From the IMG/VR virus record IMGVR_UViG_3300042890_006716: a stretch of DNA of 64,000 nucleotides; one strand, written 5' to 3'. Position 1 is the first letter of the stretch; each line of letters starts with the position of its first letter. A program made the position numbers and the translations under genes. Under the pieces are notes generated by a model. That model worked only from the letters and a program-made list of their open reading frames with translations. It was not told where the DNA came from and did not search any database. The stretch comes from an uncultured virus (IMG/VR IMGVR_UViG_3300042890_006716). Its lineage: Duplodnaviria > Heunggongvirae > Uroviricota > Caudoviricetes. Positions 21,112-63,276 of the stretch are shown here, one piece after another.

Positions 21112-21182
21112 TTGGGTTGATTATGGTTTAATCTATATTATAATTAAACCAACAAATAAACAGATTTTATTTTTAATTGAAA

Positions 21183-21356: not shown

Positions 21357-21359
21357 GTT

Positions 21360-23981: not shown

Positions 23982-23994
23982 AGTATTTATTATT

Positions 23995-24171
23995 ATGAGA
24001 GATTTAATTAAATCAATTATTAAAGAATATATTCAAACAAACGAGGCAAGTAAATCTAATTTCAAAAAACCTCGTAAGTGGAGTCAATCATATTGTAAAA
24101 AAACCCCGTGTAGCAAGATGGGGTTTTCTCAAAAAGCGTCTTGTCGCCCATACAAAAACTGTTATCAGTGA
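23995..24171 (+). CDS. Small Cys-rich protein, absent from the ORF track
   Basis: MRDLIKSIIKEY...YCKKTPCSKMGFSQKASCRPYKNCYQ; TATTTAT 4 nt upstream. Confidence 0.65.
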   Translation: MRDLIKSIIKEYIQTNEASKSNFKKPRKWSQSYCKKTPCSKMGFSQKASCRPYKNCYQ

Positions 24172-31686: not shown

Positions 31687-34600
31687 TATATGGCAGACGT
31701 AATAATATATCCAAGTGGAACTACAGGAAACTCATCGCCTCATATAGTATACGAGGGGGCGTCTGCTGCGGATAGTATCCAAATTAATATGGTTGCACCG
31801 GGTGATGTCAAATTTTCTGCAACAACAAGTCCATCATTAGTAGTTTTCAGTAATAATGACATAACAACTACAGGTGTTACAATATCAAGTTCACCATCAG
31901 GTTTATGGGTTGGTGGTCAAAATATGATTAATAATGCCGGTGTATGGATTGGACCACAAACAACTATTAAAGGTGCTCAAGGAGCTCAAGGAAATGTTGG
32001 GGCACAAGGAACAACGGGAGCTCAAGGTGGGGGTGGTAGTACAGGAGCTCAAGGAGCACAAGGTAGTACTGGTGCTCAAGGAGCAGTAGGAGCACAAGGT
32101 GCTCAAGGAGCGTCTCAAGGGGCGCAAGGAACAACAGGGGCACAAGGTGCTCAAGGTATTGCAGGTGCTCAAGGTGGTGTCCAAGGAAATCAGGGAGCAC
32201 AAGGTGCTCAAGGAGCCGTTGGTTCACAAGGAGCTCAAGGAGGTTCACAAGGTGCTCAAGGTACGACAGGTGCTCAAGGTGCTCAAGGTAGTACAGGTGC
32301 TCAAGGTGGGACACAAGGAGGACAAGGAGCCCAAGGTGCTCAGGGAGCCGTTGGTTCACAAGGTGCTCAAGGAGGTTCACAAGGTGCTCAAGGTACGACA
32401 GGGGCACAAGGTGCTCAAGGTAGTACAGGTGCTCAAGGAGGAACACAAGGAGCGACAGGAGCCACAGGTGCCCAAGGTGCCCAAGGTAGTACGGGCGCTC
32501 AAGGAGGAACGCAAGGAGCGACAGGGGCGACAGGAGCTCAAGGTGCTCAAGGGACAACAGGTGCTCAAGGTGGTGTCCAAGGAAATCAGGGAGCACAAGG
32601 TGCTCAAGGAGCCGTTGGTTCACAAGGAGCTCAAGGTGCATCACAAGGTGCTCAAGGTGCTCAAGGTACGACAGGTGCCCAAGGACCTACGGGAGCTCAA
32701 GGTGGTGTCCAAGGAAATCAGGGAGCACAAGGTGCTCAAGGAGCCGTTGGTTCACAAGGTGCACAAGGTGCTTCTCAGGGTGCTCAGGGTACGACAGGTG
32801 CTCAAGGAGCTCAAGGTAGTACGGGAGCTCAAGGAGGTGTCCAAGGGGCAACAGGTGCGACAGGTGCCACAGGAGCACAAGGACCTACAGGTGCTCAAGG
32901 TGGAGTTCAGGGGGCAACAGGTGCCGCTGGTACAACAGGTGCACAAGGACCTACAGGAGCACAAGGTGGAGTTCAGGGAAATCAGGGAGCACAGGGTGCA
33001 CAAGGAGCCGTTGGTTCACAAGGAGCTCAAGGGGCTTCTCAAGGGGCTCAAGGTGCTCAAGGTACAACAGGTGCCCAAGGACCTACAGGAGCACAAGGTG
33101 GAGTTCAGGGAAATCAGGGAGCACAAGGTGCTCAAGGAGCCGTTGGTTCACAAGGAGCACAAGGAGCTTCTCAAGGAGCTCAAGGTGCTCAAGGTACAAC
33201 AGGTGCCCAAGGACCAACAGGTGCACAAGGAGGACCTCAAGGGGCTCAAGGTGCTAATGGAACAACAGGTGCACAAGGGCCAACAGGTGCTCAAGGTGGA
33301 GTTCAGGGGGCAACGGGTGCTAATGGAACAACAGGTGCACAAGGACCTACAGGTGCTCAAGGTGGAGTTCAGGGTGCAACAGGGGCCACAGGAGCTACAG
33401 GAGCTCAAGGACCAACAGGTGCTCAAGGTGGAGTTCAGGGTGCGACGGGAGCCACAGGAGCTACAGGAGCTCAAGGACCTGTTGGTGCACAAGGAGGACC
33501 TCAAGGGGCTACAGGAGCCACAGGTGCAACAGGGGCTCAAGGACCAACAGGTGCTCAAGGAGGAACGCAAGGAGCGACAGGTGCCACAGGTGCGACAGGA
33601 GCTCAAGGACCAACAGGTTCTCAAGGAGGTGTACAAGGAGGACAAGGTGCTCAAGGAGCCCAAGGTGCTCAAGGACCAACAGGTGCACAGGGAGGACCAA
33701 CAGGTGCACAGGGTGCTCAAGGTGGACAAGGAGCCCAAGGTGCTCAGGGAAATCCAGGAGGACCTCAAGGTGCTCAAGGGGCACAAGGTGCGACTGGACA
33801 AACAGGTGCTGTTGGTAATCAAGGTGCTCAAGGAGCGGTCCAAGGAGCAACAGGCTCTACAGGACCAACAGGAGCTCAAGGTGCTCAAGGACCACAAGGT
33901 ACTCCGCAAGGGGCTCCAGGTGCTACAGGTGCTACAGGTGCTCAAGGACCTGTTGGTGCACAAGGAGGACCTCAAGGGGCTCAGGGTGCTACAGGTGCTA
34001 CAGGACCTCAGGGATTCCAAGGTGCTACAGGAGGTACTCAAGGTGCAACAGGTGCTACAGGAGCTCAAGGAGCCCAAGGTCCGATAGGGGCTCAAGGAGG
34101 TCCTCAAGGAGCTCAAGGAGCAAAAGGACCTCAAGGCCCACAAGGAGCCACAGGTGCTCAAGGAGGTACCCAAGGAGCTCAGGGTGCCACAGGAGCAACA
34201 GGTTCACAAGGACCACAAGGGAATCCGAGTGTTACACAAGGTGCTCAAGGACCCGCTGGAGCTCAAGGTTCTCAAGGGTCTCAAGGAGCGACAGGTCCTA
34301 CAGGAGGTCCAGGTCCTACAGGTGCTCAAGGTGCGGGAGGAACAAAAGGACCTGCGGGTGCGACACAGGGGGCTCAAGGTGCTGCAGGTCAGACAGGAGG
34401 ACAAGGTGTACAAGGGTCAAGAGGACCTCAAGGACCAACAGGAGCTCAAGGACCATCGGGACCAAAAGGTGCTACAGGTGCAACAGGAAAGGCCGGAACT
34501 CAGGGTTCCACAGGAGCACAAGGTGCTCAAGGAGGAAAAGGAGCTGCAGGGGCACAAGGAGCACAAGGCGCTCAAGGAGCTGTTACAGGTGGGACAGGTC

Positions 34601-37600
34601 CACAAGGAGTCCAAGGAGCTCAAGGTGCAACAGGACCTGCAGGAGGTACTGGTTCTCAAGGAGCTCAAGGTGCTAGTGTTACAGGACCACAAGGTGCTCA
34701 AGGTGCTCAAGGTAATGCTGGTAAAACGGGACCACAAGGAGCACAAGGTGCTCAAGGACCTCAAGGGCCACCTTCAGATAGAAGATTGAAAGAAAACATC
34801 AAGAAATTTGATAGAGCTATTGATGTTGTTAATATGAATGGTGTATCTTTTGATTGGGTTGAAAATATACCACAACTTTCATTGTATAAAGACAATGAAA
34901 AGTATTTACTTAAAAAACGAAGTATAGGTTTTATCGCCCAACAAGTTGAAAAATATTTTCCTGAAATTGTTTGGGAAGATAAGTTTGGTTATAAATCTTT
35001 ACAGTATGAACTACTTGTTACTCTTGGAGTATCTTTTGTAAAAGAAAATCAAAAAAGAATGGATGTCCTTAAAACATCATTAACTGAATTAGAAGAAAAA
35101 TTACGTGGCTGAGAATATAATAATAGTACCTGCAAGTATAACAATACAATTTTATGATTCGGGGAATACTCGAAGTGATTTGGTATATTCTAGTTCTACA
35201 TTGAATTATGTTGTAAATCAAACAACAACATATCTAAAAATTGCCAAGACAGCACCTATATTCCAAGTACAAAATACAAATTTAAGTGCTAATACAGTTA
35301 CAAACAATTACGGATTAATAATAGACTCTACCGGATGGAAAGGTAATGTAAATGCTGGACCACAAGGCGCTCAAGGTAATCAAGGTGCCCAAGGAGGACA
35401 AGGTGCTCAGGGTAATACTGGTAACCAAGGTGCTCAAGGAGCGGTTGGTAGTCAAGGAGCCCAAGGAGCTCAAGGTTCCCAAGGAGCAACAGGAGGGCAA
35501 GGTTCACAAGGCGCACAAGGAGCTCAAGGGGCAACAGGTAACCAAGGGGCTCAAGGAGGACAAGGTGCTCAAGGTGCTCAAGGCGCCCAAGGTGGAAAAG
35601 GTAATCAAGGCGCTCAAGGTGGACAAGGAGCTCAAGGAGCTCAAGGTTCACAAGGAGCGGTTGGTAACCAAGGTGCCCAAGGAGGACAAGGAGCTCAAGG
35701 AGCTCAAGGCGCTCAAGGTGGAAAAGGTAATCAAGGTGCTCAAGGTGGACAAGGTGCTCAAGGAGCTCAAGGTTCACAAGGAGCGGTTGGTAACCAAGGC
35801 GCCCAAGGAGGACAAGGAGCTCAAGGAGCTCAAGGTTCACAAGGAGCGGTTGGTAACCAAGGTGCACAAGGTGGACAGGGAGCTCAAGGAGCTCAAGGGG
35901 CTCAGGGTGCGACAGGTAATCAGGGTGCTCAAGGTGGACAAGGGGCCCAAGGAGCACAAGGTGCTCAAGGTGGAAAGGGTAACCAAGGTGCCCAAGGTGG
36001 ACAAGGAGCCCAAGGAGCACAAGGTGCTCAAGGTGCAACAGGAACACAGGGTGCTCAAGGTGGACAAGGAGCCCAAGGAGCACAAGGTGCTCAAGGTGGA
36101 AAGGGTAACCAAGGTGCCCAAGGTGGACAAGGAGCCCAAGGAGCACAAGGTGCTCAAGGTGCAACAGGAACACAGGGTGCTCAAGGTGGACAAGGAGCCC
36201 AAGGAGCACAAGGGGCTCAAGGAGCAACAGGAACACAGGGTGCTCAAGGTGGACAAGGTTTCCAAGGAGCTCAAGGTGCTCAAGGTGCAACGGGAACACA
36301 AGGTGCTCAAGGAGGACAAGGTGCTCAAGGAGCACAAGGGGCTCAAGGTGCTCAAGGTGGACAAGGAGCGCAAGGTGGACAAGGAGCGCAAGGGGCTCAA
36401 GGTTCACAAGGGGCAGTTGGTAACCAAGGTGCTCAAGGTGGTCAAGGAGCCCAAGGGGCGCAAGGAGCTCAAGGGGCTAAAGGTAATCAGGGAGCCCAAG
36501 GTGGACAAGGAGCACAAGGGGCTCAAGGTTCACAAGGGGCAGTTGGTAACCAAGGTGCTCAAGGTGGTCAAGGAGCTCAAGGAGCTCAAGGAGCGCAAGG
36601 AGCGACAGCAACTCAGGGTGCTCAGGGTGGACAGGGAGCACAAGGAGCTCAAGGTGCACAAGGAGCGACAGGAACCCAAGGGGCTCAAGGAGGTCAAGGT
36701 TTCCAAGGAGCTCAAGGGGCTCAAGGTGCAACAGGAACCCAAGGTGCTCAAGGTTTCCAAGGAGCTCAAGGAGCTCAAGGAGCTCAAGGAGCAACAGGAA
36801 CCCAAGGAGCTCAAGGAGGACAAGGTTTTCAAGGAGCTCAAGGGGCTCAAGGTACAACAGGAACTCAAGGTGCTCAAGGAGGTCAAGGTTTCCAAGGGGC
36901 TCAAGGAGCTCAAGGTGTATCAGGAACTCAAGGTGCTCAAGGAGGACAAGGGGCTCAAGGTTCTCAAGGTTCTGTAGGTATATCAGGTACTCAAGGTGCT
37001 CAAGGAGGACAAGGTTTCCAAGGAGCACAAGGGGCTCAAGGTGCTGTTGGAGTACAAGGTGCACAAGGAGGTCAGGGGGCTCAAGGTTTCCAAGGAGCTC
37101 AAGGTGCTGTTGGTAACCAAGGTGCGCAAGGAGCAACAGGTGGACAAGGAGTCCAAGGAGCAACAGGAGGACAAGGAGCACAAGGAGCTCAAGGCGCAAC
37201 AGGAGGACAGGGAGCACAAGGGGCTCAAGGTGCTCAAGGAGCAACAGGAACTCAAGGGGCTCAAGGAGGACAAGGTTTTCAAGGAGCACAAGGTTTCCAA
37301 GGAGCAATAGGTCCACAAGGAGCGCAAGGTGGGCAGGGAGCTCAAGGTGCTCAAGGTGCCACAGGAGCTCAAGGTCCACAAGGGGCGCAAGGAGGACAAG
37401 GTTTTCAGGGAGCTCAAGGAGGAACAGGTGCTCAAGGGTCTCAAGGAGCAACAGGAGGACAAGGATTCCAAGGAGCGCAAGGTGCTCAAGGGGACGTAGG
37501 TGGAATAGGACCTAATGGTCAGCAGGGATTCCAAGGAGCCACAGGTGCTCAAGGACCTGTTGGAGCTCAAGGAGCTCAAGGTGCAACAGGACCAACAGGA

Positions 37601-38066
37601 CCTCAAGGGGCTCAAGGTTCACAAGGAGCCGTAGGACCTACAGGGGGTCAAGGATTTCAAGGTGCTCAAGGTGCAACAGGACCAACAGGACCTCAAGGTG
37701 CAACAGGACCAACAGGACCTCAAGGTGCTCAAGGTTCAGGTACAGCCGGCGCTCAAGGTGCTCAAGGCGCTCAAGGAAATTCAGGTGCTATTGGAGCTCA
37801 AGGAGCTCAAGGGGCTCAAGGGCCAACGTCTCCTAATGGACCACAAGGTGCACAAGGTGCAACAGGGGCTCAAGGAGCTCAAGGTTCACAAGGTTTTGAG
37901 GGAGCCGTCGGTGCACAAGGACCTACAGGTCTTAAAGGACCAACAGGTGCTCAAGGTTCTGCAACACCAGGTCCAACAGGGGCACAAGGAGCACCAGGGG
38001 CTCAAGGAGGTGCTAGTTCAACATTCGGAGCACAAGGAGCTCAAGGTCCACAAGGACCAACAGGTC
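28378..38066 (+). repeat. Three blocks of coding 9-nt (GGN GCN CAR) repeats with 63/66/126-nt higher-order units
   Basis: ggtgctcaa/ggagcacaa arrays within the three collagen genes; locally GC-rich. Confidence 0.9.
31690..35112 (+). CDS. Collagen-like fibre protein 2 with S74-type chaperone
   Basis: About 930 aa of G-X-Y with regular one-residue insertions; [10 protein letters not shown]...IGFIAQQV. Confidence 0.9.
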
Positions 38067-38389
38067 CTTCAGATGAAAGACTGAAAAAAGATGTTAAACC
38101 TATCGGTGATGCTCTAAATAAGATATTAAGTATTAGAGGTGTCACATTTAAATGGAGAGGTAAAGAATATAGTTCTAATGACAAAAAAGCTATTGGATTT
38201 ATTGCTCAAGAAGTTTTGCCTTATGTTCCTGAAGTTATTTATACTGAAGGTAAAGTGTTAACAATGAATTATAAAGAAATGATTGCCGTTAACATTGAAG
38301 CGTTAAAAGAACAAGAGGTTAGAATAACATCTCTTGAAGAGAGAGCTAAAAAAGTTTTGGATAAAGCTAAACTAAAGGGGATTATTTAA
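35105..38389 (+). CDS. Collagen-like fibre protein 3 with S74-type chaperone
   Basis: GTG start overlapping the previous stop; about 900 aa of [13 protein letters not shown]...IGFIAQEV. Confidence 0.9.
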
Positions 38390-39408: not shown

Positions 39409-39420
39409 TTATAAATATAA

Positions 39421-39447
39421 AAAAAGGGTGAATTTCTTCACCCTTTT
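39421..39447. terminator. Intrinsic terminator, potentially bidirectional
   Basis: aaaagggtgaa-tttc-ttcaccctttt. Confidence 0.75.
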
Positions 39448-39469
39448 AATTTTACTAACATATTACAAC

Positions 39470-39622
39470 TTAACGTTTGTAATATTTCTCAACTGTTTTC
39501 TTAATGGCATCTTTAACAGTCTCTTGAACATACTGAGCTCTTTGAGCGGTTGCTTGAGTCTGTTGTTGACTTGATTGAGTGTTAGTACTGTTGTTTGCTT
39601 TGTTTTTACAACCACATCCCAT
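39470..39622 (-). CDS. Small MGCGCK protein, absent from the ORF track
   Basis: MGCGCKNKANNSTNTQSSQQQTQATAQRAQYVQETVKDAIKKTVEKYYKR; lies between a TATTTAT motif and a terminator. Confidence 0.7.
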   Translation of the reverse strand: MGCGCKNKANNSTNTQSSQQQTQATAQRAQYVQETVKDAIKKTVEKYYKR

Positions 39623-39709
39623 AATTTTGTAGTATTGGAGTTTTATTACATATAAATAGTAAACTTGTAGAAATATAAATCAATCAAAGTATTTATCAAA
39701 TAAAAAATA

Positions 39710-50588: not shown

Positions 50589-50662
50589 CGCGGGGTGGTA
50601 GCAGTTGGTAGCTCGCAAGGCTCATAACCTTGAGGCCGTCGGTTCGAGTCCGACTCCCGCAA
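50589..50662 (+). tRNA. tRNA-Met (CAT), initiator-like
   Basis: Cloverleaf: acceptor CGCGGGG/TCCCGCA with C1:A72 mismatch, anticodon arm CAAGG-CTCATAA-CCTTG, T arm GTCGG-TTCGAGT-CCGAC; CCA not encoded. Confidence 0.93.
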
Positions 50663-50685
50663 CAAAAAAAACTTTTACAAAGTGC

Positions 50686-50751: not shown

Positions 50752-51610
50752 TGATTATCCTTCTAACCAACAGGTTAGTAAATAAGATAATTGGCCGCCT
50801 ATGGTCAATAAATAAACCACGAAAGTGGGATAAAGTGGTCTCCGAAGGTTAACGGAGACTGCGGTTCTTTGAACTTCGGTTCTTAGAGCTCGAGTAGGCA
50901 AGCGGGATATCATTGTTCCTGAGTAGTCGAGGGTGACACTGTAGACAAAATGGAATGATGACTCAGCGATGTGGGTCGTTGAGTTGAGTTCGGAAGAACA
51001 ATAAGAATAACTCGTAGAATTGTTGTGAGAAGTAAAGTCATCCAACTTTACAATCACGGGATTCAATATCAGAGGTGTCTTAAAGACGAAAGTCATGTTA
51101 TCGTACAGGTGGTGCTGTTGGTAACCTTAGTTAGAATCTACCAAGATTTTAATTATGAAGATTTCTTGAAGTATCGAGGTAGGGATATCTCAGAGAGTAG
51201 TTCAGTATCGAGTCGTTCAAAAGATGGCTTGTCTGGTTGGCAGACCGCTACTTTCACCATCCACAGACCAACAACTTTGCATTTTGAAGTATGCAAATAC
51301 TAAAAGACGAAGGAAAAGTGTCTGTCAGTCGTAGGCGAAAGGTGACTACATAGTAATGAGATGTTCATTGCCATTATGGGTTCCCAAGACCCAAATGATT
51401 CTTGAGAAAGTTCTCTAATCCCGCAAGGATTCACTGGGGTGGCAACCTCGGAGAGTAACAAGTACAAAGAGAGTAACCGCACGACTCAAGGAATGGTACC
51501 CCTAAGGAACCGTCACTAAGAATTACTACTCAAAAGGTAGTGGAAACGGGAAGAAACAATAATGTCCCTAAAGATTCTTAATCGAAGGTGTATTCTCAAC
51601 CTAAGTGCCA
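50752..51610 (+). ncRNA. Giant structured ncRNA, probably GOLLD-class
   Basis: About 860 nt with no credible ORF, raised GC and many helices with GAAA/TTCG/GCAA loops; directly after a tRNA; has its own promoter and terminator. Boundaries approximate. Confidence 0.72.
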
Positions 51611-57931: not shown

Positions 57932-58206
57932 TAGTCGGTGAGACAGAAAGTGTCTTTTGTTAGTTGTGATGTAACAGAATCAATTCTTTCTTTTATTTGA
58001 GAAATTATTTGAGGTTGGTTAACATCATCGTTATATGTCTTGATAGTAAGACCATAAACCCAATCACACATTGCGCTTCTAACAGGAGATTTAAGTAAGA
58101 ATTGTATTTCAACTGAACGAATATTTTTGAATGCAGGATTTTTACTAACCATATTTTTTACAATTTTGGTCAATACTCTTCTCATATAAAAATTCCTGTC
58201 GGCCAT
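57919..58206 (-). CDS. Hypothetical protein
   Basis: 95-aa ORF; TATCTTTG upstream on the minus strand. Confidence 0.6.
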   Translation of the reverse strand: MADRNFYMRRVLTKIVKNMVSKNPAFKNIRSVEIQFLLKSPVRSAMCDWVYGLTIKTYNDDVNQPQIISQIKERIDSVTSQLTKDTFCLTDYYFE

Positions 58207-58265
58207 AATGAATCAAAGATATATGATAAATACTTTGTAATTGTATATTTATAGATAAAAATATT

Positions 58266-59060
58266 ATGTCAAAACCACTTTTGAAAGAAGTTAATAAGCA
58301 GTTTAGACTTATGGGTTTAAATGAACAAGCTATTGGGAGACTTGCCGATTTTTTAAAAACCCTTTCAGCATTTGCGCCTGAAGAGAAACCAAAAGGTGAT
58401 GAGGTTAAAACCGACGACCTTGAAGTTTCCGATAATGGTAAAATCAAACACAGTTATAGTGGTGAAGCCGGCAGAAACGTAGAAATCGTGATAGATGAAA
58501 TGAATAAAATGGGTATTACTGATGTTGATACTCAAATTGGTATATTAAGTGTTTTGGCCAAAGAATCTGGTTTTCAGATGGGTTCTGAAATTGGTTACGG
58601 TAATACAAGTAACGATAGAATCAGAAGTATTTTTGGTAAAAGAGCCCAAAGGTTAAGTGATAGACAGTTAACGAGACTTAAAAAAAGTAATAAGGACTTT
58701 TTTGAATATATGTATGGGTACAAATCAGGTATCAGATTGGGTAACACTGAACCTGGTGATGGATACAAATACAGAGGTAGAGGGTTCAATGGACTAACAG
58801 GTAGAGCGAACTACAAAAAATATGGTAGTCTTGTTGGTGAAAACCTTGAAGGTAATCCTGATTCATTAGATGACCCAAGAGTAGCTGCCAAAGTTGCAAT
58901 TGCCTTTATGTTAAAAGGTAAATCACCAAATTCACTTCCTAAATTTGATAATGAAAAAGACGCGTCTAACTATTTTGCTGACTTGAATGCTGGTGGTTCA
59001 TCAGGTATGGCACGTTCTAAAGCAAGTGAAACTTTATCTAAGTTTGAAAAAATCGCGTAA
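58266..59060 (+). CDS. Glycoside hydrolase family 19 (chitinase-like peptidoglycan hydrolase)
   Basis: KESG...LGNTEPGDGYKYRGRGFNGLTGRANY. Confidence 0.85.
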   Translation: MSKPLLKEVNKQFRLMGLNEQAIGRLADFLKTLSAFAPEEKPKGDEVKTDDLEVSDNGKIKHSYSGEAGRNVEIVIDEMNKMGITDVDTQIGILSVLAKESGFQMGSEIGYGNTSNDRIRSIFGKRAQRLSDRQLTRLKKSNKDFFEYMYGYKSGIRLGNTEPGDGYKYRGRGFNGLTGRANYKKYGSLVGENLEGNPDSLDDPRVAAKVAIAFMLKGKSPNSLPKFDNEKDASNYFADLNAGGSSGMARSKASETLSKFEKIA

Positions 59061-59099
59061 TTTTTTGATTTAATCTATATTTTATTTTACCTTTGTCCT

Positions 59100-59768
59100 A
59101 TGAAACTTGTATTAGAGAAAGGACAGCGGTTATTTTTTACCAGTGATACTCACTATGGTCACGGTAATATTTGTAGCGCAACTACAAAATGGGTTGGCGC
59201 TGAAAATCTAACTCGAGATTTCAAATCCCTTGACCATATGAATGATGTCTTGGTCAACAACATCAATGAGATGATTGGTGAGAATGATATATTGATTCAC
59301 TTAGGTGACTGGTCTTTCGGTGGATTCGATAAGATTGAAGAGTTTCGTAACAGAATCTTATGTAAAAACGTTTACTTAGTTTTTGGTAACCACGACCACC
59401 ACATTCGTAGAGATAAAGAAGACATCCAAAGGGTGTTCAAAGGATGTTTTGATTACTTACATTTAGATTTGAGGATTCCCAACGGAAAGATTGTAGATAA
59501 GATTTCTATCGTATGTCTACACTATCCAATAGCGTCTTGGAATGGTATGAATGATGGGGTAATTCACTTACACGGACACGTTCACTTACCATCACATCTT
59601 AAGATTGCTGATGGACGAGCAATGGACGTTGGGGTTGACGGTAACAACTTATATCCTTATGATTTAAGTGAGATTCGTTCTTTGTTGAAGGACCGACCAA
59701 AAGTAAGGTTAACACTTCCTAAAGACCATCACGAAAAAAGAATTGACCCCACGGAAGTTGACAGTTAA
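59100..59768 (+). CDS. Calcineurin-like metallophosphoesterase
   Basis: SDTHYGH, HLGD, GNHD, HYP, HGHVH and DVGVD motifs. Confidence 0.9.
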   Translation: MKLVLEKGQRLFFTSDTHYGHGNICSATTKWVGAENLTRDFKSLDHMNDVLVNNINEMIGENDILIHLGDWSFGGFDKIEEFRNRILCKNVYLVFGNHDHHIRRDKEDIQRVFKGCFDYLHLDLRIPNGKIVDKISIVCLHYPIASWNGMNDGVIHLHGHVHLPSHLKIADGRAMDVGVDGNNLYPYDLSEIRSLLKDRPKVRLTLPKDHHEKRIDPTEVDS

Positions 59769-59807
59769 TAAAAAACATTTATATTTGTAAAACTTAAATA
59801 GAAGATT

Positions 59808-60242
59808 ATGACGATTAAACAAGCACTAAAACAAAAAGCTCGATTGGTGAAAAGTATCAATGAGAGAATTGTTCGAATTGAAAAAGATAACTCAGTTATC
59901 GAAGGAGCCATCCGTAGTTATGACCCACAGACAGAATTGCAGAGTTTGTTGGAAGAAACTAACCAATTGATTGAATTGAAGACTGCAATCCACAGGGCGA
60001 ATAATGAAGTTTATGACAAGATTTTCCGTTTGTCTGAATTGAAAAATTTGGTTAAGACCTTGAAGAAAATGGATACCCAAGAGGGTAACGTTAGTCGTAG
60101 AGGTTATGGTGAATCAATGTTGTTGAACTATAATGTAGTTATCAGCGCTAGCACCCGAGACAAAATGGTTAAGTCTTATGAAGACGAGATTGACGCTCTT
60201 CAGGACGAGTTAGACACATACAACGCGACAAAAACGTTGTAA
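59808..60242 (+). CDS. DIP1984/DUF6847-like coiled-coil protein
   Basis: MTIKQALK...LIELKTAIHRAN...IDALQDELDTYNATK pattern. Confidence 0.65.
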   Translation: MTIKQALKQKARLVKSINERIVRIEKDNSVIEGAIRSYDPQTELQSLLEETNQLIELKTAIHRANNEVYDKIFRLSELKNLVKTLKKMDTQEGNVSRRGYGESMLLNYNVVISASTRDKMVKSYEDEIDALQDELDTYNATKTL

Positions 60243-60251
60243 AAGAAAGTT

Positions 60252-60425
60252 GTGTTTGGTTGGTGTTTTTGGAGATTTAGTTACATAAAAACTCTACTAT
60301 CCATTAGATAATTGATGACGTTAAAGTATTCAAAAATTAGATTGTTCACCTGTTCAAAAATCACTGAGAGAGTCAAACCTTAAAACTCATTAAAACCTTT
60401 ATTGAAGAAAACCTAGCCAACACAC
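60252..60425 (+). ncRNA. Candidate structured RNA in the 3' region of the DIP1984-like gene
   Basis: Long closing stem between 60252-60270 and 60407-60425, enclosing repeated TTCAAAAAT and TTAAAAC motifs; lies inside the terminator. Confidence 0.45.
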
Positions 60426-60426
60426 T

Positions 60427-60454
60427 AACCCCTCACTTCGGTGGGGGGTTTTTT
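60427..60454 (+). terminator. Intrinsic terminator (ccctcac/gtggggg family)
   Basis: aacccctcac-ttcg-gtggggggtt followed by a T-run. Confidence 0.85.
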
Positions 60455-60466
60455 AAAAAAACGAGT

Positions 60467-60712
60467 ATGAAAAATATCCTTATAAAAACGTTATTCCATT
60501 TAGCATTAATCGTAATCACTGTATTGGTGATGTGGGAAATTATGGACTATTCATTTATTTTTATGAATAAACCTGACAGTGCACTTGTAATAATTGGCTT
60601 CGCATTTTTATTAGCAACCTTTATTGGCGGAGTTTATGTAATTAAAAATGTTGCGGATTCATTAATTAATTTATTTAAAACAAACAAAAAAGAAGATGAG
60701 CAATCTAACTAA
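60467..60712 (+). CDS. Two-TM membrane protein
   Basis: Two hydrophobic helices; overlaps the SPFH gene. Confidence 0.65.
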   Translation: MKNILIKTLFHLALIVITVLVMWEIMDYSFIFMNKPDSALVIIGFAFLLATFIGGVYVIKNVADSLINLFKTNKKEDEQSN

Positions 60713-61550
60713 AATTTTGGGAAGCGTAATTGCTTTGGTATTAATTTTCACTATGTTCGCAGGATGTGAACGTATTGATGCAGGACACGTAGGTGTTAAG
60801 GTAAATCTCTATGGAGATGGTAAAGGTGTTGATGATGTTACTGAGGTAACAGGGTGGGTATTTTATAACCCAATCAGTACAAAAATTGTTGAGTTCCCAA
60901 CATACGTTCAACACAAAGAATATAAGTTGGACAGGGAGAATGAAATCGATGAGTCGTTTGTTGTTAACTCAAAAGACGGTTCCGAGTTTCACGTATCACC
61001 ATTGTTGAACTACTCAGTTAAACGTGAAAAAGTACCTTACATTTTTTCAAAGTATCGTGTTGAGTTGGGTGATATTGAAGGTGGATTTCTAAAGACGGCT
61101 GTGTATGATGCTTTCCGAGTTGTTGCTAACTCATACACTGCGGATGAATTGATTTCAAACCGTGAATTGTTTGAGTTGAAGGTTAGAAGTGTTTTGGTAA
61201 AACAACTTGAACCTGAAGGGTTTATTCTAAGTCAGTTTACATCTAACTTGGTTTACCCTGAAACATTCAAGAAAGCAATTGAAGCTAAGAATAACGCGGT
61301 CCAAGCGGCTTTAACGGCTGAGAACAAAGTAAAACAAGCTGAGGCTGAGGCTAAGATTAAAGTGGCAACTGCTGAAGGTAACGCTCAGGCGATGTTAACA
61401 AGAGCTAAGGCTGAAGCGGAAGCAAACCGACTACGACAACAAACACTAACTCCTATGTTGATTCAACAACAATGGATTGAGAAGTGGAAAGGTAACGTAC
61501 CGTCCACGGTCCTGGGAAATGGAACCAATCTAATGTATGGGATTAAGTAA
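60696..61550 (+). CDS. SPFH/Band-7 (prohibitin-like) protein
   Basis: RIDAGHVGVKV, AIEAK, AEAEAKIK...AEGNA, QQWIEKW.G.VP. Confidence 0.9.
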   Translation: MSNLTKILGSVIALVLIFTMFAGCERIDAGHVGVKVNLYGDGKGVDDVTEVTGWVFYNPISTKIVEFPTYVQHKEYKLDRENEIDESFVVNSKDGSEFHVSPLLNYSVKREKVPYIFSKYRVELGDIEGGFLKTAVYDAFRVVANSYTADELISNRELFELKVRSVLVKQLEPEGFILSQFTSNLVYPETFKKAIEAKNNAVQAALTAENKVKQAEAEAKIKVATAEGNAQAMLTRAKAEAEANRLRQQTLTPMLIQQQWIEKWKGNVPSTVLGNGTNLMYGIK

Positions 61551-61555
61551 CTTTG

Positions 61556-61583
61556 AAACCCTCACCAATCGGTGGGGGTTTTT
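61556..61583 (+). terminator. Intrinsic terminator (ccctcac/gtggggg family)
   Basis: aaaccctcacc-aatc-ggtgggggttt. Confidence 0.8.
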
Positions 61584-61630
61584 ACTTTATGATGACAATA
61601 TTCTGAAATATATGTTCTATATTTGAAATT

Positions 61631-62473
61631 ATGAAAAAACTATTTACGCTTTTAATGCTTTTGGTCTCCTTAGCAACAGCGAACGCAAAATGTGATTGGA
61701 GCACACTAAAACTCCAACAATCAAATCAACGTAATCTTTACAAATGGTATGTGAGTGGTCAAGTACTTGATGACACTTGTGTTGATTATATGTTTATGGT
61801 TTACGACTTCCAAACCAAAAAGACTGATACTATTAGAGATAATAGGGGGTTGATTCAAGTTCAATTTAATGTTAAAGGTAAATATAAAATGTATTTGAAG
61901 GTTTGGAACAGGTGTACAAAATGTGATACGGCCATCTACCGACCTTTAGAAATTATTAAGTTTCCAGGCGCTACTGTAAGTTCGAATGTGTATCCAAATA
62001 GTTGTAAGCAGTATAAATTTGAAATGAGCACTATTAAAGGTTACCCATTAAAAGATACTTGTATGAGCTACTACTTAATGTTCTACTCAGGACCTTGGAT
62101 GGCTAAAATGACTCAAAGTGAGTGGGACTCACTTAGTGATTACCAAATTGGAATGGAATATGATTTTCCAGATGCGGACTTCTTAGGTTATGGTGATACA
62201 AGGCTTTTTAACTTTGTATTTAAAGACACTGGTCGTGTATTAGTAGTTGCTCAATGGTGGAACAAATGTGTTAGTCAGGACACATTCATGTTTAGGAAAT
62301 TAGATGTTTGTAAGCGTTCTAATCTTTCAAGTGTGATTACATTTACCAAACCTGAACCAAAAGTAATTGGGATGTATGACATGATGGGTCGACCTGTTTA
62401 TAATGTTCGTAAAGAAGAAATTATAATTTATCTTTATGATAATGGTAAAACCGAGAAGGTCTTGATACACTAA
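61631..62473 (+). CDS. Secreted protein with two Cys-containing repeats and a T9SS-CTD-like tail
   Basis: Signal peptide; repeats DTC..Y...WN(R/K)C...DT; C-terminal IGMYDMMGRPV...IYLYDNGKTEKV. Confidence 0.65.
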   Translation: MKKLFTLLMLLVSLATANAKCDWSTLKLQQSNQRNLYKWYVSGQVLDDTCVDYMFMVYDFQTKKTDTIRDNRGLIQVQFNVKGKYKMYLKVWNRCTKCDTAIYRPLEIIKFPGATVSSNVYPNSCKQYKFEMSTIKGYPLKDTCMSYYLMFYSGPWMAKMTQSEWDSLSDYQIGMEYDFPDADFLGYGDTRLFNFVFKDTGRVLVVAQWWNKCVSQDTFMFRKLDVCKRSNLSSVITFTKPEPKVIGMYDMMGRPVYNVRKEEIIIYLYDNGKTEKVLIH

Positions 62474-62507
62474 TATTTTTTAGTTATCATTGTTAAAAAC
62501 AAGATAT

Positions 62508-62939
62508 ATGAGTAAAGTAAAAATCTCAACAGCAAAAGGTGATATGATTGCGGAGTTGTATGACAACGAAACTCCAATCACGGTAGAAAACTTTAAGAGT
62601 TTGATTAACAAGAAATTCTATGACGGACTTAATTTCCATAGAGTGATTCCTGGATTTGTTGCCCAAGGTGGTTGTCCTAACGGTGTTGGAAATGGAGGAC
62701 CTGGATACACAATCCAATGTGAAGTAACAGCGCCAAAACAATTCCACGATAAAGGTGTTCTTTCAATGGCACACGCTGGTCGTAACACAGGAGGTTCACA
62801 GTTCTTTATCTGTCACAATAGACAGAACACCCAACACTTGGACGGTAATCATACCTGTTTTGGGAAGATTGTTGAAGGTGTTGATATCATTGACCAACTC
62901 CAACAAGGTGACCAAATCAATTCTATGGAATTGATTTAA
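62508..62939 (+). CDS. Cyclophilin-type peptidyl-prolyl isomerase
   Basis: FYDGLNFHRVIPGFVAQGG, LSMAHAGRNTGGSQFFI, HLDGNHTCFG. Confidence 0.95.
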   Translation: MSKVKISTAKGDMIAELYDNETPITVENFKSLINKKFYDGLNFHRVIPGFVAQGGCPNGVGNGGPGYTIQCEVTAPKQFHDKGVLSMAHAGRNTGGSQFFICHNRQNTQHLDGNHTCFGKIVEGVDIIDQLQQGDQINSMELI

Positions 62940-62944
62940 TCTTG

Positions 62945-62970
62945 AACCCCACTTAACGGTGGGGTTTTTT
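62945..62970 (+). terminator. Intrinsic terminator (same hairpin family)
   Basis: aaccccac-ttaacg-gtggggtt followed by a T-run. Confidence 0.8.
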
Positions 62971-62991
62971 GTTTTTAACATATTTATGAGT

Positions 62992-63235
62992 ATGGCAAAG
63001 GCAAGAAAAGAGGGGAAACCAAAAAGAAACAGGGTAAATGTTAAAAAAACCCTTGACAGAATTAGTAATAACAACGATATTATTAATCGATACATAAAAG
63101 AACTAAAAGGAAACAGTTATGACACTTGAACAGGCAAAACAAATCTTGAAAGAGAACGGTAGACCTTCTTGTCCGTGTAAGTACAGCAGTACTGAGGCGA
63201 TGATAGAAGAGGCTAAGAAATTAGTAAAAAAGTAA
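62992..63235 (+). CDS. Two tiny overlapping ORFs (62992-63129, 45 aa; 63119-63235, 38 aa)
   Basis: MAKARKEGKPKRNR... and MTLEQAKQILKENGRPSCPCK...; bracketed by TATTTAT and a terminator at about 63234-63262. Confidence 0.55.
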
Positions 63236-63276
63236 AAACCTGAGACTTCTCAGGTTTTTTTTATTATATTTGTTCT

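What the first reader, a model, noticed from the sequence alone, without database searches (positions are those of the whole stretch)
59780..60454. DIP1984-like gene plus a structured, repeat-bearing 3' RNA: a candidate protein-RNA module
Seen: a self-contained unit of TATATTTG promoter, 144-aa coiled-coil gene, about 185 nt non-coding and a terminator, in a genome where spacers are usually a few nt. The spacer is closed by a stem of about 17 bp (gtgtttggttggtgttttt / gaaaacctagccaacacac). It encloses an A-rich, weakly paired region with TTCAAAAAT twice (60329, 60353), TCAAAC, and TTAAAAC twice 10 nt apart (60380, 60390). Inference: the loop presents iterated binding sites for the oligomeric protein, as in an RNP, an autoregulatory element or a type III toxin-antitoxin-like pair. 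I know of no described function for this arrangement.
Basis: partly seen in the sequence, partly recalled or inferred. Interest (0 to 1): 0.7.

Follow-up and report, generated by a model that had tools for sequence, protein, structure and literature searches.

The report
Phage protein gene with partner RNA
In this lake phage a small gene of unknown function is always followed by a conserved, folded RNA of about 200 bases that is in no RNA catalogue, so the two probably work together as an undescribed RNA-protein pair.

Summary
Window 59758-60454 is one unit: a sigma-70-type promoter, a 144-aa gene, a ~180-nt structured RNA and an intrinsic terminator.

- **Protein:** it has the DIP1984/DUF6847 fold (3kdq, Z 13.6) but scores below both families' sequence cut-offs.
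- **RNA structure:** a three-part closing helix surrounds a conserved, apparently unpaired core. The core carries U(C/U)AA(A/C) motifs, mostly 7 nt apart.
- **Linkage:** every homologous locus with enough downstream DNA has this RNA directly 3' of the gene. These include 62 phage contigs, 6 genome contigs and 2 huge phages, at 35-55% protein identity.
- **Covariation:** all 23 modelled pairs show double-sided changes (90% of cells paired, against 40-49% in slid controls).
- **Strand:** G-U pairs place the structure on the gene strand.
- **Specificity:** a motif scan gave 8 RNA hits among 80 loci, and exactly those 8 carry the gene.
- **Catalogue:** Rfam 15 has no match.
- **Expression:** freshwater metatranscriptome contigs bridge gene and RNA. 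One contig is exactly 60248-60453.

Best reading: a stable RNA cut from the mRNA 3' end that partners the upstream protein. Binding is inferred, not shown. A type III toxin-antitoxin pair is not supported.

The parts
59758..59787 (+). Promoter: -35 TTGACA (59758-59763), 16-nt spacer, -10 TATATT (59780-59785; TATATTTG to 59787)
   Evidence: Best sigma-70-like site in 58000-62600, 11 of 12 matches. A TTGACA-N16-18-TATAAT-like pair lies 25-60 nt before the ATG in most of the 23 representative homologous loci printed (read by eye).
59808..60242 (+). 144-aa gene for a three-helix plus beta-hairpin protein, a divergent DUF6847/DIP1984-fold member and predicted homodimer
   Evidence: ORF. NF038048 E 1.2e-5, 25.5 bits against a cut-off of 70. 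PF20935 E 0.02, 15.3 bits against 27; 17 of 23 homologues match PF20935 at E<=1. AF2 pLDDT 92.3. 3kdq_A: Foldseek TM 0.69; VIA-align Z 13.6, rmsd 2.6 A over 140 residues. Dimer model ipSAE 0.64 against 0.00 for the best of 3 controls.
60243..60247 (+). A-rich linker between the stop codon and the RNA; likely processing site (inferred)
   Evidence: The RNA-library contig of run X18 starts at 60248, while another contig of the same run runs from the gene into 60277.
60248..60453 (+). Whole RNA species as seen in a metatranscriptome contig (structured domain plus terminator hairpin), 206 nt
   Evidence: X18 record 17 covers 60248-60453, and its last 30 nt repeat 60248-60277. Covariance models place the structured domain at 60251-60426: R1, built without the window, 30.6 bits, E 9.6e-4; R2 70.7 bits, E 2.3e-10.
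60248..60270 (+). 5' arm of the three-part closing helix P1 (P1a, P1b, P1c)
   Evidence: MFE and centroid folds. Duplex of 25 bp, -22.9 kcal/mol, 1 of 200 shuffles as good. Covariation on alignment A6.
60298..60310 (+). Small hairpin P2 (weak in the window: UAUC/GAUA)
   Evidence: MFE fold. P2 covaries in relatives (AUCC/GGAU, GACU/AGUC). 11-16 of 41 rows have gaps at these four pairs.
60307..60398 (+). Conserved core with no consensus pairing: GAUAAUUGAUGA block, then U(C/U)AA(A/C) motifs at 60330, 60354, 60373, 60380 and 60390, ending in the near-invariant UUAAAACUC (60380-60388)
   Evidence: Conserved columns in A1 and A6. RNAalifold predicts no pair inside the core. Interior MFE is no better than shuffles. 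Motif enrichment and 7-nt spacing.
60405..60426 (+). 3' arm of the closing helix P1
   Evidence: G-U pairs make the + strand duplex more stable than the - strand one (-22.9 against -11.4 kcal/mol in the window).
60428..60454 (+). Intrinsic terminator: 9-bp GC-rich stem, UUCG loop, U6 tract
   Evidence: Sequence and fold. The RNA-library contig ends at 60453, inside the U tract. Not listed by the simple scan.

Best explanation
Window 59758-60454 is a self-contained phage transcription unit. A sigma-70-type promoter drives a 144-aa DUF6847/DIP1984-fold protein, predicted to be a dimer. The same transcript continues into a ~180-nt structured RNA and ends at an intrinsic terminator.

The RNA has three features:
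- its ends pair in a long three-part helix;
- it has one small variable hairpin;
- it has a ~90-nt conserved core with no predicted pairing, carrying 4-7 U(C/U)AA(A/C) motifs mostly 7 nt apart and ending in UUAAAACUC.

**Shown:** the RNA is real, lies on the gene strand, is under selection for structure, and is linked to this gene in both directions in every sample tested.

**Hinted by RNA-library contigs:** the gene and RNA are co-transcribed. A discrete 206-nt species (60248-60453) is released by a cut in the A-rich linker just before the helix.

**Inferred:** the RNA is the partner of the protein encoded just upstream. The partnership would be either a ribonucleoprotein or a mutual titration pair. 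The unpaired motif array would serve as a multivalent landing platform. The invariant lysine-rich N-terminal helix (MTIKQALKxKNKL), which lies outside the predicted dimer interface, is the candidate RNA-binding surface.

What the pair does for the phage is unknown. My odds: about 0.9 that the RNA is a real gene-linked structured RNA, and about 0.45 that it binds the adjacent protein.
For: **1. Conservation of the arrangement**
- 69 viral loci encode a relative at 40-55% identity.
- In 60 of 60 loci where a next + strand ORF of 50 aa or more could be called, the gap after the gene is 142 nt or more.

**2. Structure**
- In 42 of 42 distinct downstream sequences, the first and last 45 nt form a 20-29-bp duplex. 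For 32 of the 42, at most 2 of 200 shuffles do as well; the worst is L040, with 33 of 200.
- On alignment A6 (41 sequences), 90.3% of cells pair, against 39.7-49.0% with slid partners.
- The covariation score is 0.692, against 0.087-0.164 with slid partners.
- 23 of 23 pairs show double-sided changes. 0 of 500 shuffles reach the observed value on four of five measures, and 3 of 500 on the fifth.
- RNAalifold independently keeps 16 P1 pairs.

**3. Strand**
- The + strand duplex is the more stable one in 41 of 42 sequences. 117 of 1056 pairs are G-U.

**4. Independent detection**
- Model R1 was built from 12 sequences of one subgroup, without the window. It finds window 60251-60426 (E 9.6e-4).

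**5. Linkage in both directions**
- R2 gives 41 matches at E<=0.05 in 46 sources (295 kb). All lie directly 3' of the gene on its strand.
- In each of the 5 remaining sources, the top hit is at that same place.
- Two whole MAG genomes (3.1 and 2.5 Mb) have one hit each, at the gene.
- Of 80 loci fetched by a core-motif pattern, 8 are R2-positive, and exactly those 8 carry the gene just upstream. Three of the 8 are contigs already known.

**6. Depth of the linkage**
- Two huge phages at 35-36% identity keep the RNA.
- In the L040 group, L082 and L100, something is inserted between gene and RNA, yet the order is kept.

**7. Neighbouring genes differ widely**
- Neighbours include Hsp70, a DnaJ-like protein, cyclophilin, HAD and GNAT proteins.
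- In L009, L023, L027, L046, L050, L064, L067 and L070 the next gene is convergent.

**8. The same fold elsewhere is also followed by RNA**
- 6 of 6 bona fide DIP1984 loci (4 plasmids from 4 phyla and 2 genomes) have a different conserved non-coding element 22-35 nt after the stop.
- That element includes a 5-bp long-range helix that is 5 of 5 paired in all six, with compensatory changes.

**9. Motifs**
- 245 U[CU]AA[AC] motifs are observed against 86 expected in 49 RNA interiors.
- 84 of 197 spacings are 7 nt. The sequences are related, so these counts are not independent.

**10. Expression hints**
- Contigs of 4 RNA runs from 4 studies bridge the gene and the RNA.
- X18 holds a contig that is exactly 60248-60453.

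**11. Dimer model**
- ipSAE is 0.64 against 0.00 for the best of 3 controls.
- That mark was reached by 20 of 30 proteins solved as pairs of one chain and 1 of 23 solved as single chains.
- The three runs share at least 98% of contacts, and the partner's pLDDT is at least 91.
Against: - No tool here tests protein-RNA binding, so the partnership rests on synteny alone.
- The RNA follows the gene, so co-inheritance could simply reflect a shared transcript.
- The protein matches no known RNA-binding family. The PDB sequence and profile searches found nothing. The only meaningful fold match, 3kdq, has no known function.
- The dimer pass may come from the model's memory of the multi-chain 3kdq crystal. 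My own alignment was used, so the calibration holds only roughly.
- Alignment A6 was fitted to the model's structure, which favours pairing.
- The RNA-library evidence consists of contigs only. Depth is one figure per contig, DNA may be present in RNA libraries, and no raw reads were seen.
- R2 does not detect the Arcicella-type variants at E<=0.1 in whole-genome scans of G002, G005 and G006. It finds them only weakly in small searches (E 0.006-0.09).
- R2 does not hit the RNA behind bona fide DIP1984 genes. Homology between the two RNA classes is therefore not shown.
- One of the 49 interiors (L071) has no U[CU]AA[AC] motif at all.
Confidence: 0.5

Rival explanations
1. Decoy or sponge for a host factor. 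The stable RNA displays many copies of an unpaired A-rich 7-nt unit to soak up a host RNA-binding protein, the SD-independent Bacteroidota ribosome, or a tRNA-directed nuclease or modifier. The upstream protein is merely co-expressed, or acts as a helper.
For: - The core is multi-copy, has no consensus pairing and is conserved in sequence.
- The RNA contig has higher depth than the gene contig in X18 (58.8 against 9.55). This is a poor measure of expression.
- From memory, the unit YU-YAA-AA equals the anticodon loop of tRNA-Leu(YAA).
- The hosts appear to be Bacteroidota (MAG labels; a T9SS sorting domain in a neighbouring gene).
Against: - Strict two-way linkage to one protein family across 35-55% identity is not needed for a pure host-factor sponge.
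- The motif density upstream of the window's own start codons is only 1.6 per 100 nt, against 4.7 per 100 nt in the RNA core. The core is therefore not an obvious mimic of a translation start region.
- Only 1 of 43 loci has tRNA genes nearby.
- The same protein fold is followed by a different RNA in cellular genomes, which points to the protein as the constant partner.
Confidence: 0.2
2. Base-pairing small RNA derived from the mRNA 3' end. The repeated UCAAA-type motifs are redundant seeds that pair with UUUGA-containing host or phage mRNAs. The closing helix and the terminator only stabilise the RNA.
For: - The layout matches that of known 3'-UTR-derived sRNAs: it shares the mRNA's terminator, and a contig starts just 3' of the stop codon.
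- An accessible, conserved single-stranded region is present.
Against: - 5-nt motifs are too short and too common in AT-rich genomes to specify targets.
- This reading does not explain the conserved 7-nt register, or the extra conserved blocks (GAUAAUUGAU, UUAAAACUC).
- No chaperone or target could be tested here.
- It does not explain why the upstream gene is always the same family.
Confidence: 0.12
3. A purely cis-acting 3' element that protects the gene's mRNA from exonucleases or tunes termination, with no function in trans.
For: - It sits between the stop codon and the terminator.
- P1 starts 0-10 nt after the stop codon in most loci, so translation and folding could be coupled.
Against: - A terminator hairpin alone would protect the 3' end.
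- About 90 nt of sequence-conserved, apparently unpaired RNA is unexplained by this reading.
- A contig equal to the RNA alone, starting at 60248, suggests separation from the mRNA.
- In the L040 group, L082 and L100 the RNA is kept even though an insertion separates it from the gene.
Confidence: 0.08
4. Type III toxin-antitoxin-like pair: the protein is a toxin, neutralised by the repeat RNA.
For: - A protein gene and a repeat-bearing RNA share one unit with its own promoter and terminator.
- The module is mobile among phage contexts.
Against: - There is no tandem repeat array (0 rows).
- No ToxN, AbiQ or other endoribonuclease family is found, and PADLOC hits are noise (best E 0.006).
- The fold is a helical bundle like 3kdq.
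- The RNA lies after the gene, not before it with a terminator in between.
Confidence: 0.03
5. Leader or riboswitch of the downstream gene, with an aptamer closed by P1 followed by a terminator as the expression platform.
For: A P1-closed domain immediately followed by an intrinsic terminator is the classic layout of a transcription-terminating riboswitch.
Against: - The downstream genes differ widely.
- The next gene is on the opposite strand in L009, L023, L027, L046, L050, L064, L067 and L070.
- The upstream gene is always the same family.
- In L006, L010, L015 and L029 no terminator was found after the RNA.
Confidence: 0.02
6. A DNA-level element (replication origin with iterons, packaging site or recombination site) flanked by an inverted repeat.
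For: AT-rich short repeats are enclosed by an inverted repeat.
Against: - The inverted repeat tolerates G-U but not A-C. The + strand duplex is more stable in 41 of 42 sequences, and 117 of 1056 pairs are G-U.
- A promoter and a terminator bracket the element.
- An RNA-library contig has exactly the predicted RNA ends.
Confidence: 0.02

Closest known systems
DIP1984 / DUF6847 protein family (Pfam PF20935, NCBIfam NF038048; crystal structure 3kdq of Corynebacterium diphtheriae; often labelled 'septicolysin' in annotations)
   Same: - Same fold: VIA-align Z 13.6, rmsd 2.6 A over 140 of 144 residues; Foldseek TM 0.69.
- Same size, about 145-150 aa.
- 17 of 23 phage homologues touch PF20935 at E<=1.
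- All 6 bona fide members examined are also followed by a conserved non-coding element.
   Different: - The window protein is below both curated cut-offs.
- The phage branch has an invariant, more lysine-rich N-terminal helix.
- The RNA behind bona fide members is a different class that R2 does not detect.
- No function is known for the family. Text searches for 'DIP1984' (1 unrelated paper), 'DUF6847' (0) and 'septicolysin' (34 papers; the 15 listed are plasmid and genome surveys, judged from titles and abstract starts only) gave nothing on function.
Bacterial Ro (Rsr) with Y RNA (recalled from general knowledge)
   Same: - The RNA is encoded next to the gene of its protein partner.
- The RNA's 5' and 3' ends pair in a long stem that encloses a large loop region.
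   Different: - Ro is a large HEAT-repeat ring, not a 144-aa helical dimer.
- Y RNAs have a conserved bulged helix and often a tRNA-like domain.
- No Rfam family, Y RNA-like ones included, matches here.
Protein-titrating small RNAs with iterated single-stranded motifs (CsrB/RsmZ with GGA; CrcZ with A-rich motifs; recalled)
   Same: Several copies of a short motif are presented in accessible RNA. The RNA is apparently stable and abundant (a hint only).
   Different: - Here the motifs lie in one large closed loop with a 7-nt register, not in separate hairpin loops.
- The RNA is genetically fused to one protein gene.
- The motif is U(C/U)AA(A/C).
Type III toxin-antitoxin systems (ToxIN, AbiQ/antiQ, CptIN; recalled)
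   Same: A protein gene and a repeat-bearing RNA form one small mobile unit associated with phages.
   Different: - Here the RNA follows the gene.
- There is no tandem array of ~36-nt repeats.
- The protein is not an endoribonuclease family member.
3'-UTR-derived small RNAs (for example CpxQ, SroC; recalled)
   Same: The RNA lies between the stop codon and the mRNA's own terminator. RNA-library contigs bridge gene and RNA, and one contig starts just after the stop codon.
   Different: This RNA is much larger and structurally constrained, with a 19-pair closing helix that shows covariation. It is strictly tied to one protein family across very different phages.
Orphan phage-borne structured RNAs (GOLLD, ROOL) and the ~8,500 unnamed candidate RNAs predicted from IMG/VR (PMC10690425; passages and supplement tables searched)
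   Same: It is a conserved structured RNA of unknown function in uncultured phages. A GOLLD RNA lies in this same window (51193-51602).
   Different: - It is far smaller than GOLLD, and no Rfam match exists.
- Whether it is one of the unnamed IMG/VR candidates could not be checked. The model files (supplements 1 and 2) were unreadable.
- The searchable tables gave no hit for DUF6847, PF20935, septicolysin or DIP1984, nor for six metagenome ids of my loci.

Membership tests
DUF6847 / DIP1984 (PF20935, NF038048) | Sequence score above the curated cut-off | tested here: not met
   Window protein: PF20935 15.3 bits against 27 (E 0.02); NF038048 25.5 bits against 70 (E 1.2e-5, full length). Among homologues, 17 of 23 match PF20935 at E<=1, best 1.7e-6.
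DUF6847 / DIP1984 (PF20935, NF038048) | Fold of the solved member 3kdq (three long helices plus a beta-hairpin, ~150 aa) | tested here: met
   AF2 model pLDDT 92.3. 3kdq_A is the top hit in Foldseek (TM 0.69/0.66, E 4e-3). It is also top in VIA-align (Z 13.6, rmsd 2.6 A, 140 aligned); the next hit has Z 9.1 at rmsd 8.8 A.
Type III toxin-antitoxin (ToxIN-like) | Antitoxin RNA is a tandem array of ~34-36-nt direct repeats (feature recalled) | tested here: not met
   Tandem Repeats Finder gives 0 rows at score >=30 in 60200-60480. Only 5-9-nt motifs recur.
Type III toxin-antitoxin (ToxIN-like) | Toxin is a ToxN/AbiQ/CptN-type endoribonuclease (feature recalled) | tested here: not met
   No such family appears in Pfam, NCBIfam, PHROGs or PADLOC. 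The fold matches 3kdq only.
Type III toxin-antitoxin (ToxIN-like) | RNA gene precedes the toxin gene, with a terminator between them (feature recalled) | tested here: not met
   The RNA follows the gene in the window and in every related locus.
Any Rfam 15 family (including 6S, 6S-Flavo, Y RNA-like) | Covariance-model match | tested here: not met
   At gathering thresholds the window holds only GOLLD and a tRNA, both elsewhere. At E<=10 in 59700-60600 there are only weak matches far below gathering scores, the best ones over the terminator region. Ten related or comparison loci give only two tRNAs at E<=0.01.
3'-UTR-derived small RNA | Co-transcribed with the upstream ORF and sharing its terminator | tested here: inconclusive
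   Contigs of 4 RNA runs bridge gene and RNA (60010-60428, 59923-60339, 60060-60298, 59926-60277), and one ends at 60453 in the U tract. These are contigs, and DNA in the libraries cannot be excluded. A weak promoter-like site inside the gene (59976-60005, 9 of 12) cannot be excluded either.
3'-UTR-derived small RNA | Discrete processed 5' end | tested here: inconclusive
   One contig of one run starts at 60248, where the assembly graph branches. No raw reads were seen.
Protein-titrating sRNA (CsrB/CrcZ type) | Several accessible copies of one short motif | tested here: met
   245 motifs observed against 86 expected in 49 interiors; 5 against 1.9 in the window. No consensus pairing is predicted in the core. 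Interior MFE has a mean z of +0.27 in 20 representatives.
Protein-titrating sRNA (CsrB/CrcZ type) | Demonstrated binding of the motif by a protein | not testable with these tools
   The complex predictor takes no RNA chain.
Diversity-generating retroelement (Avd followed by template repeat) | A second, adenine-variable copy (VR) of the A-rich element, plus a reverse transcriptase (features recalled) | tested here: not met
   A sensitive blastn of 60243-60430 against the window finds only itself; the next best match is 31 nt at 81%. No RT is found among the 47 ORFs scanned by PHROGs. The protein fold is 3kdq, and Avd is not listed.
Intrinsic (rho-independent) terminator | GC-rich hairpin followed by a U tract | tested here: met
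   9-bp stem 60428-60436/60441-60449, UUCG loop, T6 at 60449-60454. The RNA-library contig ends at 60453. The simple scan missed it.

The most novel reading that the evidence does not exclude
DUF6847/DIP1984-fold proteins are the protein half of a widespread, undescribed family of small ribonucleoproteins. This would be the first functional lead for this protein fold.

In freshwater Bacteroidota phages, huge phages included, the dimeric protein would coat a heptad-register U(C/U)AA(A/C) array inside a helix-closed ~206-nt RNA that is cut from its own mRNA.

Two bolder extensions are not excluded:
- The RNA is circularised in vivo. One metatranscriptome contig joins U60453 to A60248.
- Its 7-nt units mimic tRNA-Leu(YAA) anticodon loops and act as decoys for a host tRNA-directed defence enzyme.
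Probability: 0.3. Interest if true: 0.85.

Novelty: new variant of a known kind. Interest (0 to 1): 0.7.

Why it matters
- **A first functional lead for the protein family.** DUF6847/DIP1984 has had a crystal structure since 2009 (release date) but no function. It is common on Acinetobacter and Enterococcus plasmids (370 plasmid records). A structured RNA following the gene in phages, and a different one in cellular genomes, would give the family its first testable role: RNA binding.
- **A new RNA family.** For RNA biology this is a well-supported, ~180-nt family absent from Rfam 15. It has an unusual layout, a long helix closing a conserved stretch with no predicted pairing that carries a 7-nt-register motif array. 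It is also present in RNA libraries from lakes.
- **A mobile phage module.** For phage biology it is a self-contained unit with its own promoter and terminator that moves between very different genome contexts. Accessory host-takeover or counter-defence functions often look like this.

Tried and rejected
- **DGR template repeat behind an Avd-like protein.** No second copy in the window, no RT seen, and the fold is not Avd.
- **6S-like or Y-RNA-like RNA.** No Rfam match, even at E<=10.
- **A third hairpin (UCAAA/UUUGA).** RNAalifold predicted it in subgroup A2, but it never varies there and is not complementary in other groups. I left it out of the models.
- **Pairing between the GAU block and the UCAA block.** At most 3-4 complementary bases, not predicted by RNAalifold.
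- **Mimicry of the phage's own translation start regions.** Motif density upstream of start codons is 1.6 per 100 nt, against 4.7 per 100 nt in the core.
- **Link to tRNA genes.** 1 of 43 loci.
- **Defence-system membership.** PADLOC hits are noise.
- **PDB searches.** Neither the single-sequence nor the profile search found anything.
- **Cultured phages.** Only 2 uncultured huge phages among 50,697 records carry the gene. The Flavobacterium 'immuto' phages share only the neighbouring phosphoesterase.
- **The window's own assembly.** It is not held, and the nearest record G001 (15 kb) has no match.
- **Bona fide DUF6847 genes in Bacteroidota genomes.** Rare: 1 of 301 and 2 of 401 genomes searched.
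- **RNA-run cover.** Parts of the stretch without contig cover in single runs were not interpreted.
- **The IMG/VR candidate-RNA catalogue (PMC10690425).** Its model files were unreadable, so overlap is unknown.
- **First MAFFT alignment A1.** It aligned the 5' arms poorly and was used only for the core.
Full report
**What is in the window**

- TATATTTG lies at 59780-59787, with a TTGACA 16 nt upstream at 59758-59763. This is the best sigma-70-like site in 58000-62600 (11 of 12 matches).
- A 144-aa ORF runs from 59808 to 60242, followed by 185 nt without an ORF.
- A GC-rich hairpin with a U6 tract lies at 60428-60454.
- The reported motifs are present: TTCAAAAAT at 60329 and 60353, TCAAAC at 60373, and TTAAAAC at 60380 and 60390.
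- The MFE and centroid folds pair 60248-60270 with 60405-60426.

The fold energy alone is unremarkable: z is -1.9 on the + strand and +0.34 on the - strand.

The window is a piece of a large phage.
- It carries a primase, SbcCD, a sigma factor, three collagen-like tail fibre genes, methyltransferases, an endolysin and a phosphoesterase.
- It also holds a GOLLD RNA and a tRNA-Met.
- Its genes are tightly packed. The median gap is 7 nt, and only 8 of 73 gaps are 150 nt or longer.

**The protein**

Sequence evidence is weak but consistent.
- NCBIfam gives a weak but full-length DIP1984 match: E 1.2e-5, 25.5 bits against a cut-off of 70.
- Pfam DUF6847 scores E 0.02 for the window protein. It touches 17 of 23 homologues at E<=1.

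Fold evidence is clear.
- An AlphaFold2 model from a 23-sequence alignment has pLDDT 92.3. It shows three helices (residues 3-27, 40-86 and 114-141) and a beta-hairpin (93-108).
- The only meaningful structural match is 3kdq, the C. diphtheriae protein of unknown function.
- Foldseek gives TM 0.69. VIA-align gives Z 13.6 and rmsd 2.6 A over 140 residues, well above the next hit (Z 9.1 at rmsd 8.8 A).

The protein is therefore DIP1984-like by fold but falls below the curated sequence thresholds.

The family is uncharacterised.
- It comprises 189 clusters of ~143-146 aa with no precomputed Pfam domain.
- The nearest ESM Atlas clusters are viral, with DUF6847 on 19-23% of members.

A two-copy complex model supports a homodimer.
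- The ipSAE is 0.64, against 0.00 for the best of 3 controls.
- That mark was reached by 20 of 30 proteins solved as pairs of one chain and by 1 of 23 solved as single chains.
- The three runs share at least 98% of contacts, and the partner's pLDDT is at least 91.
- 3kdq is a multi-chain crystal, so this pass may come from memory. My own alignment was used, so the calibration holds only roughly.
- The predicted interface runs along helix 2 and involves the conserved YNS and (M/L)DCxEG loops.
- The invariant lysine-rich N-terminus (MTIKQALKxKNKL) lies outside the interface.

**The RNA is real**

The gap after the gene is conserved.
- A back-translated search of IMG/VR gave 69 loci at 40-55% identity.
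- Five of them end inside the gene. In 60 of 60 loci where a next + strand ORF of 50 aa or more could be called, the gap after the gene is 142 nt or more.
- I kept the 62 loci with at least 200 nt of downstream DNA, plus the window. That gave 42 distinct sequences.

An alignment-free test supports the closing helix.
- In 42 of 42 sequences, the first and last 45 nt of the spacer form a 20-29-bp duplex.
- For 32 of the 42, at most 2 of 200 shuffles do as well. The worst case is L040 (33 of 200), where my boundaries were rough.
- The arm sequences differ completely between subgroups.
- The duplex is more stable on the gene strand in 41 of 42 sequences (mean -21.2 against -14.4 kcal/mol). It contains 117 G-U pairs among 1056.
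- This asymmetry argues for RNA rather than a DNA palindrome.

Covariance models give independent detection and strict placement.
- RNAalifold on one subgroup of 12 sequences gave a three-part closing helix (10 + 5 + 4 pairs) and a 4-pair hairpin, both with compensatory changes.
- Model R1, built from that subgroup alone, found the window's RNA at 60251-60426 (30.6 bits, E 9.6e-4 in 269 kb).
- Model R2 was built from 27 sequences. It gave 41 matches at E<=0.05 in 46 sources (295 kb).
- All 41 lie directly 3' of the gene on its strand, and none lies elsewhere.
- In each of the five sources it missed, the top hit is at that same place when filters are off (E 7e-4 to 0.09).

Covariation on the 41-row alignment A6 is strong.
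- 90.3% of cells pair, against 39.7-49.0% with slid partners.
- The covariation score is 0.692, against 0.087-0.164.
- 23 of 23 pairs have double-sided changes.
- This alignment is fitted to the model, which favours pairing. However, the alignment-free test and an independent RNAalifold run (16 P1 pairs) agree with it.

**The core**

- Inside P1, RNAalifold predicts no consensus pair.
- The core's folding energy is no better than shuffles: mean z is +0.27, and 13 of 20 representatives have z>0.
- Yet this is the most sequence-conserved part. It holds a GAU-rich block, then U(C/U)AA(A/C) motifs, then the near-invariant UUAAAACUC.
- Across 49 interiors the motif occurs 245 times against 86 expected.
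- Successive motifs are 7 nt apart in 84 of 197 cases, 8 nt apart in 21, and 14-15 nt apart in 38. The sequences are related, so these are not independent counts.
- One interior (L071) has no motif at all.
- Tandem Repeats Finder finds no array.

**Linkage in both directions and over deep divergence**

- Six genome contigs carry the gene. They are Bacteroidota and Flavobacteriales MAGs, Arcicella aurantiaca, an Arcicella MAG and one contig labelled Aquiluna. All show the RNA layout.
- In two whole MAG genomes (3.1 and 2.5 Mb), R2 has exactly one hit each, at the gene. It does not reach E<=0.1 in the three genomes that carry the Arcicella-type variant.
- Two huge uncultured phages at 35-36% identity keep the RNA (E ~1e-3). 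In one, the motif is shifted to GUUAAA(A) and a small lysine-rich ORF lies between the gene and the RNA.
- The L040 group has a small Cys-rich ORF inserted in the same place.
Of the 80 loci fetched, 8 are R2-positive (E<=6.4e-6).
- Exactly those 8 carry the gene just upstream (HMM E<=3e-57). The other 72 have neither. Three of the 8 are contigs I already had.
- Neighbouring genes vary widely and include convergent downstream genes. This rules out a leader of the downstream gene.
- Most loci have their own TTGACA/TATAAT-like promoter just upstream (by eye).

**Expression hints**

- Six metatranscriptome runs from six studies hold 25-43% of the sampled words of 59700-60500.
- I laid four of them. 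Only Logan contigs were available, so depth is one figure per contig and DNA carry-over cannot be excluded.
- Contigs bridge the gene and the RNA in all four runs: 60010-60428, 59923-60339, 60060-60298 and 59926-60277.
- In run X18 a 236-nt contig is exactly 60248-60453. It runs from two bases before P1 to the fifth U of the terminator.
- Its depth is 58.8, against 9.55 for the gene contig of the same run.
- Its last 30 nt repeat 60248-60277. This is a k-1 self-overlap, meaning that some reads join the 3' end to the 5' end.
- This fits a discrete RNA with those ends. Whether it is circular or a library artefact cannot be told here.

**The wider family**

Earlier notes of this scan report DIP1984-like genes next to other uncatalogued RNAs in other genomes. 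I tested that lead in part.
- Bona fide DIP1984 genes are common on plasmids (370 records).
- I examined six loci: four plasmids (Picosynechococcus, Acinetobacter, Enterococcus and Streptomyces) and two genomes.
- In all four plasmids the gene is followed by at least 268 nt without an annotated gene.
- The two genome loci also have long downstream stretches without an ORF of 60-80 aa or more in my ORF lists.
- All six share a GCGAGYRC motif 22-35 nt after the stop and an ACCRYGURCUG motif 111-159 nt further on.
- These two motifs form a 5-bp helix that is 5 of 5 paired in all six, with compensatory changes.
- R2 does not hit these regions, and Rfam has nothing there.
- The same protein fold is therefore followed by a different structured RNA class in cellular replicons. 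This makes the protein, not the neighbourhood, the constant partner.

**Interpretation**

- The best-supported reading is a stable RNA derived from the 3' end of the gene's own transcript, acting together with the DUF6847-like protein.
- I put the RNA's reality and its linkage to the gene at about 0.9, and direct binding at about 0.45.
- The main rival is a sponge for a host factor. Base-pairing and purely cis roles are less likely.
- The type III toxin-antitoxin, riboswitch-leader, DGR and DNA-element readings each fail a direct test.

**Novelty**

- No Rfam 15 family matches.
- Text searches for DIP1984, DUF6847 and septicolysin found nothing on function or on an RNA partner. For the 'septicolysin' papers I saw only the search listing.
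- A catalogue of ~8,500 unnamed IMG/VR RNA candidates exists (PMC10690425). I read passages of it and searched its supplement tables. Its model files were unreadable, so overlap with that list cannot be excluded.

Noticed in passing
window 51193-51602 (+), with tRNA-Met at 50589-50663: A full-length GOLLD RNA (307.5 bits, E 4e-87) lies about 0.5 kb from a tRNA-Met gene. This phage therefore carries at least two structured non-coding RNAs.
   Followed up: no
window 60248-60453, RNA run X18: One metatranscriptome contig equals the RNA and ends with a 30-nt repeat of its own start. This is a head-to-tail junction from U60453 to A60248. It could be a circular or concatemeric RNA, or a cDNA-ligation or template-switch artefact.
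   Followed up: partly
L203-L206, L078, L080 (downstream of bona fide DIP1984 genes): A different conserved non-coding element follows bona fide DIP1984 genes in 6 of 6 loci examined. It has the motifs GCGAGYRC and ACCRYGURCUG, which form a covarying 5-bp long-range helix. It is not in Rfam 15 and is not hit by my model R2.
   Followed up: partly
window 13932-14741 (+); promoters in L009-L056: The phage encodes its own sigma-70-family factor (phrog_351, E 4e-53). Most copies of the module are preceded by canonical TTGACA-N17-TATAAT promoters rather than the Bacteroidota TAnnTTTG type. This may reflect phage-directed transcription.
   Followed up: no
L040 2939-3126; L082 about 1985-2075; L100: Small ORFs are inserted between the gene and the RNA in some lineages, while the gene-to-RNA order is kept. 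One is a Cys-rich, zinc-ribbon-like ORF of ~60 aa; another is a lysine-rich ORF of ~28 aa.
   Followed up: partly
L037 438-2300 and 3166-4077; L001 3191-3622; window 62490-62939 and 60696-61550: The module often sits among protein-folding or quality-control genes. These include a phage Hsp70 just upstream and a DnaJ-like gene just downstream in L037, a cyclophilin next to it in L001 and 2 kb away in the window, and an SPFH/Band 7 lipoprotein in the window.
   Followed up: no
window 16902-17173, 21112-21535, 23870-24164, 39409-39709, 62940-63276: These are other ORF-free gaps of 270-420 nt in an otherwise tightly packed genome. They were not examined for RNAs or small genes.
   Followed up: no
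window 28108-38389 (+): Three consecutive very large (1094-1192 aa) collagen-like tail fibre genes have many internal repeats matching the same PHROG families.
   Followed up: no
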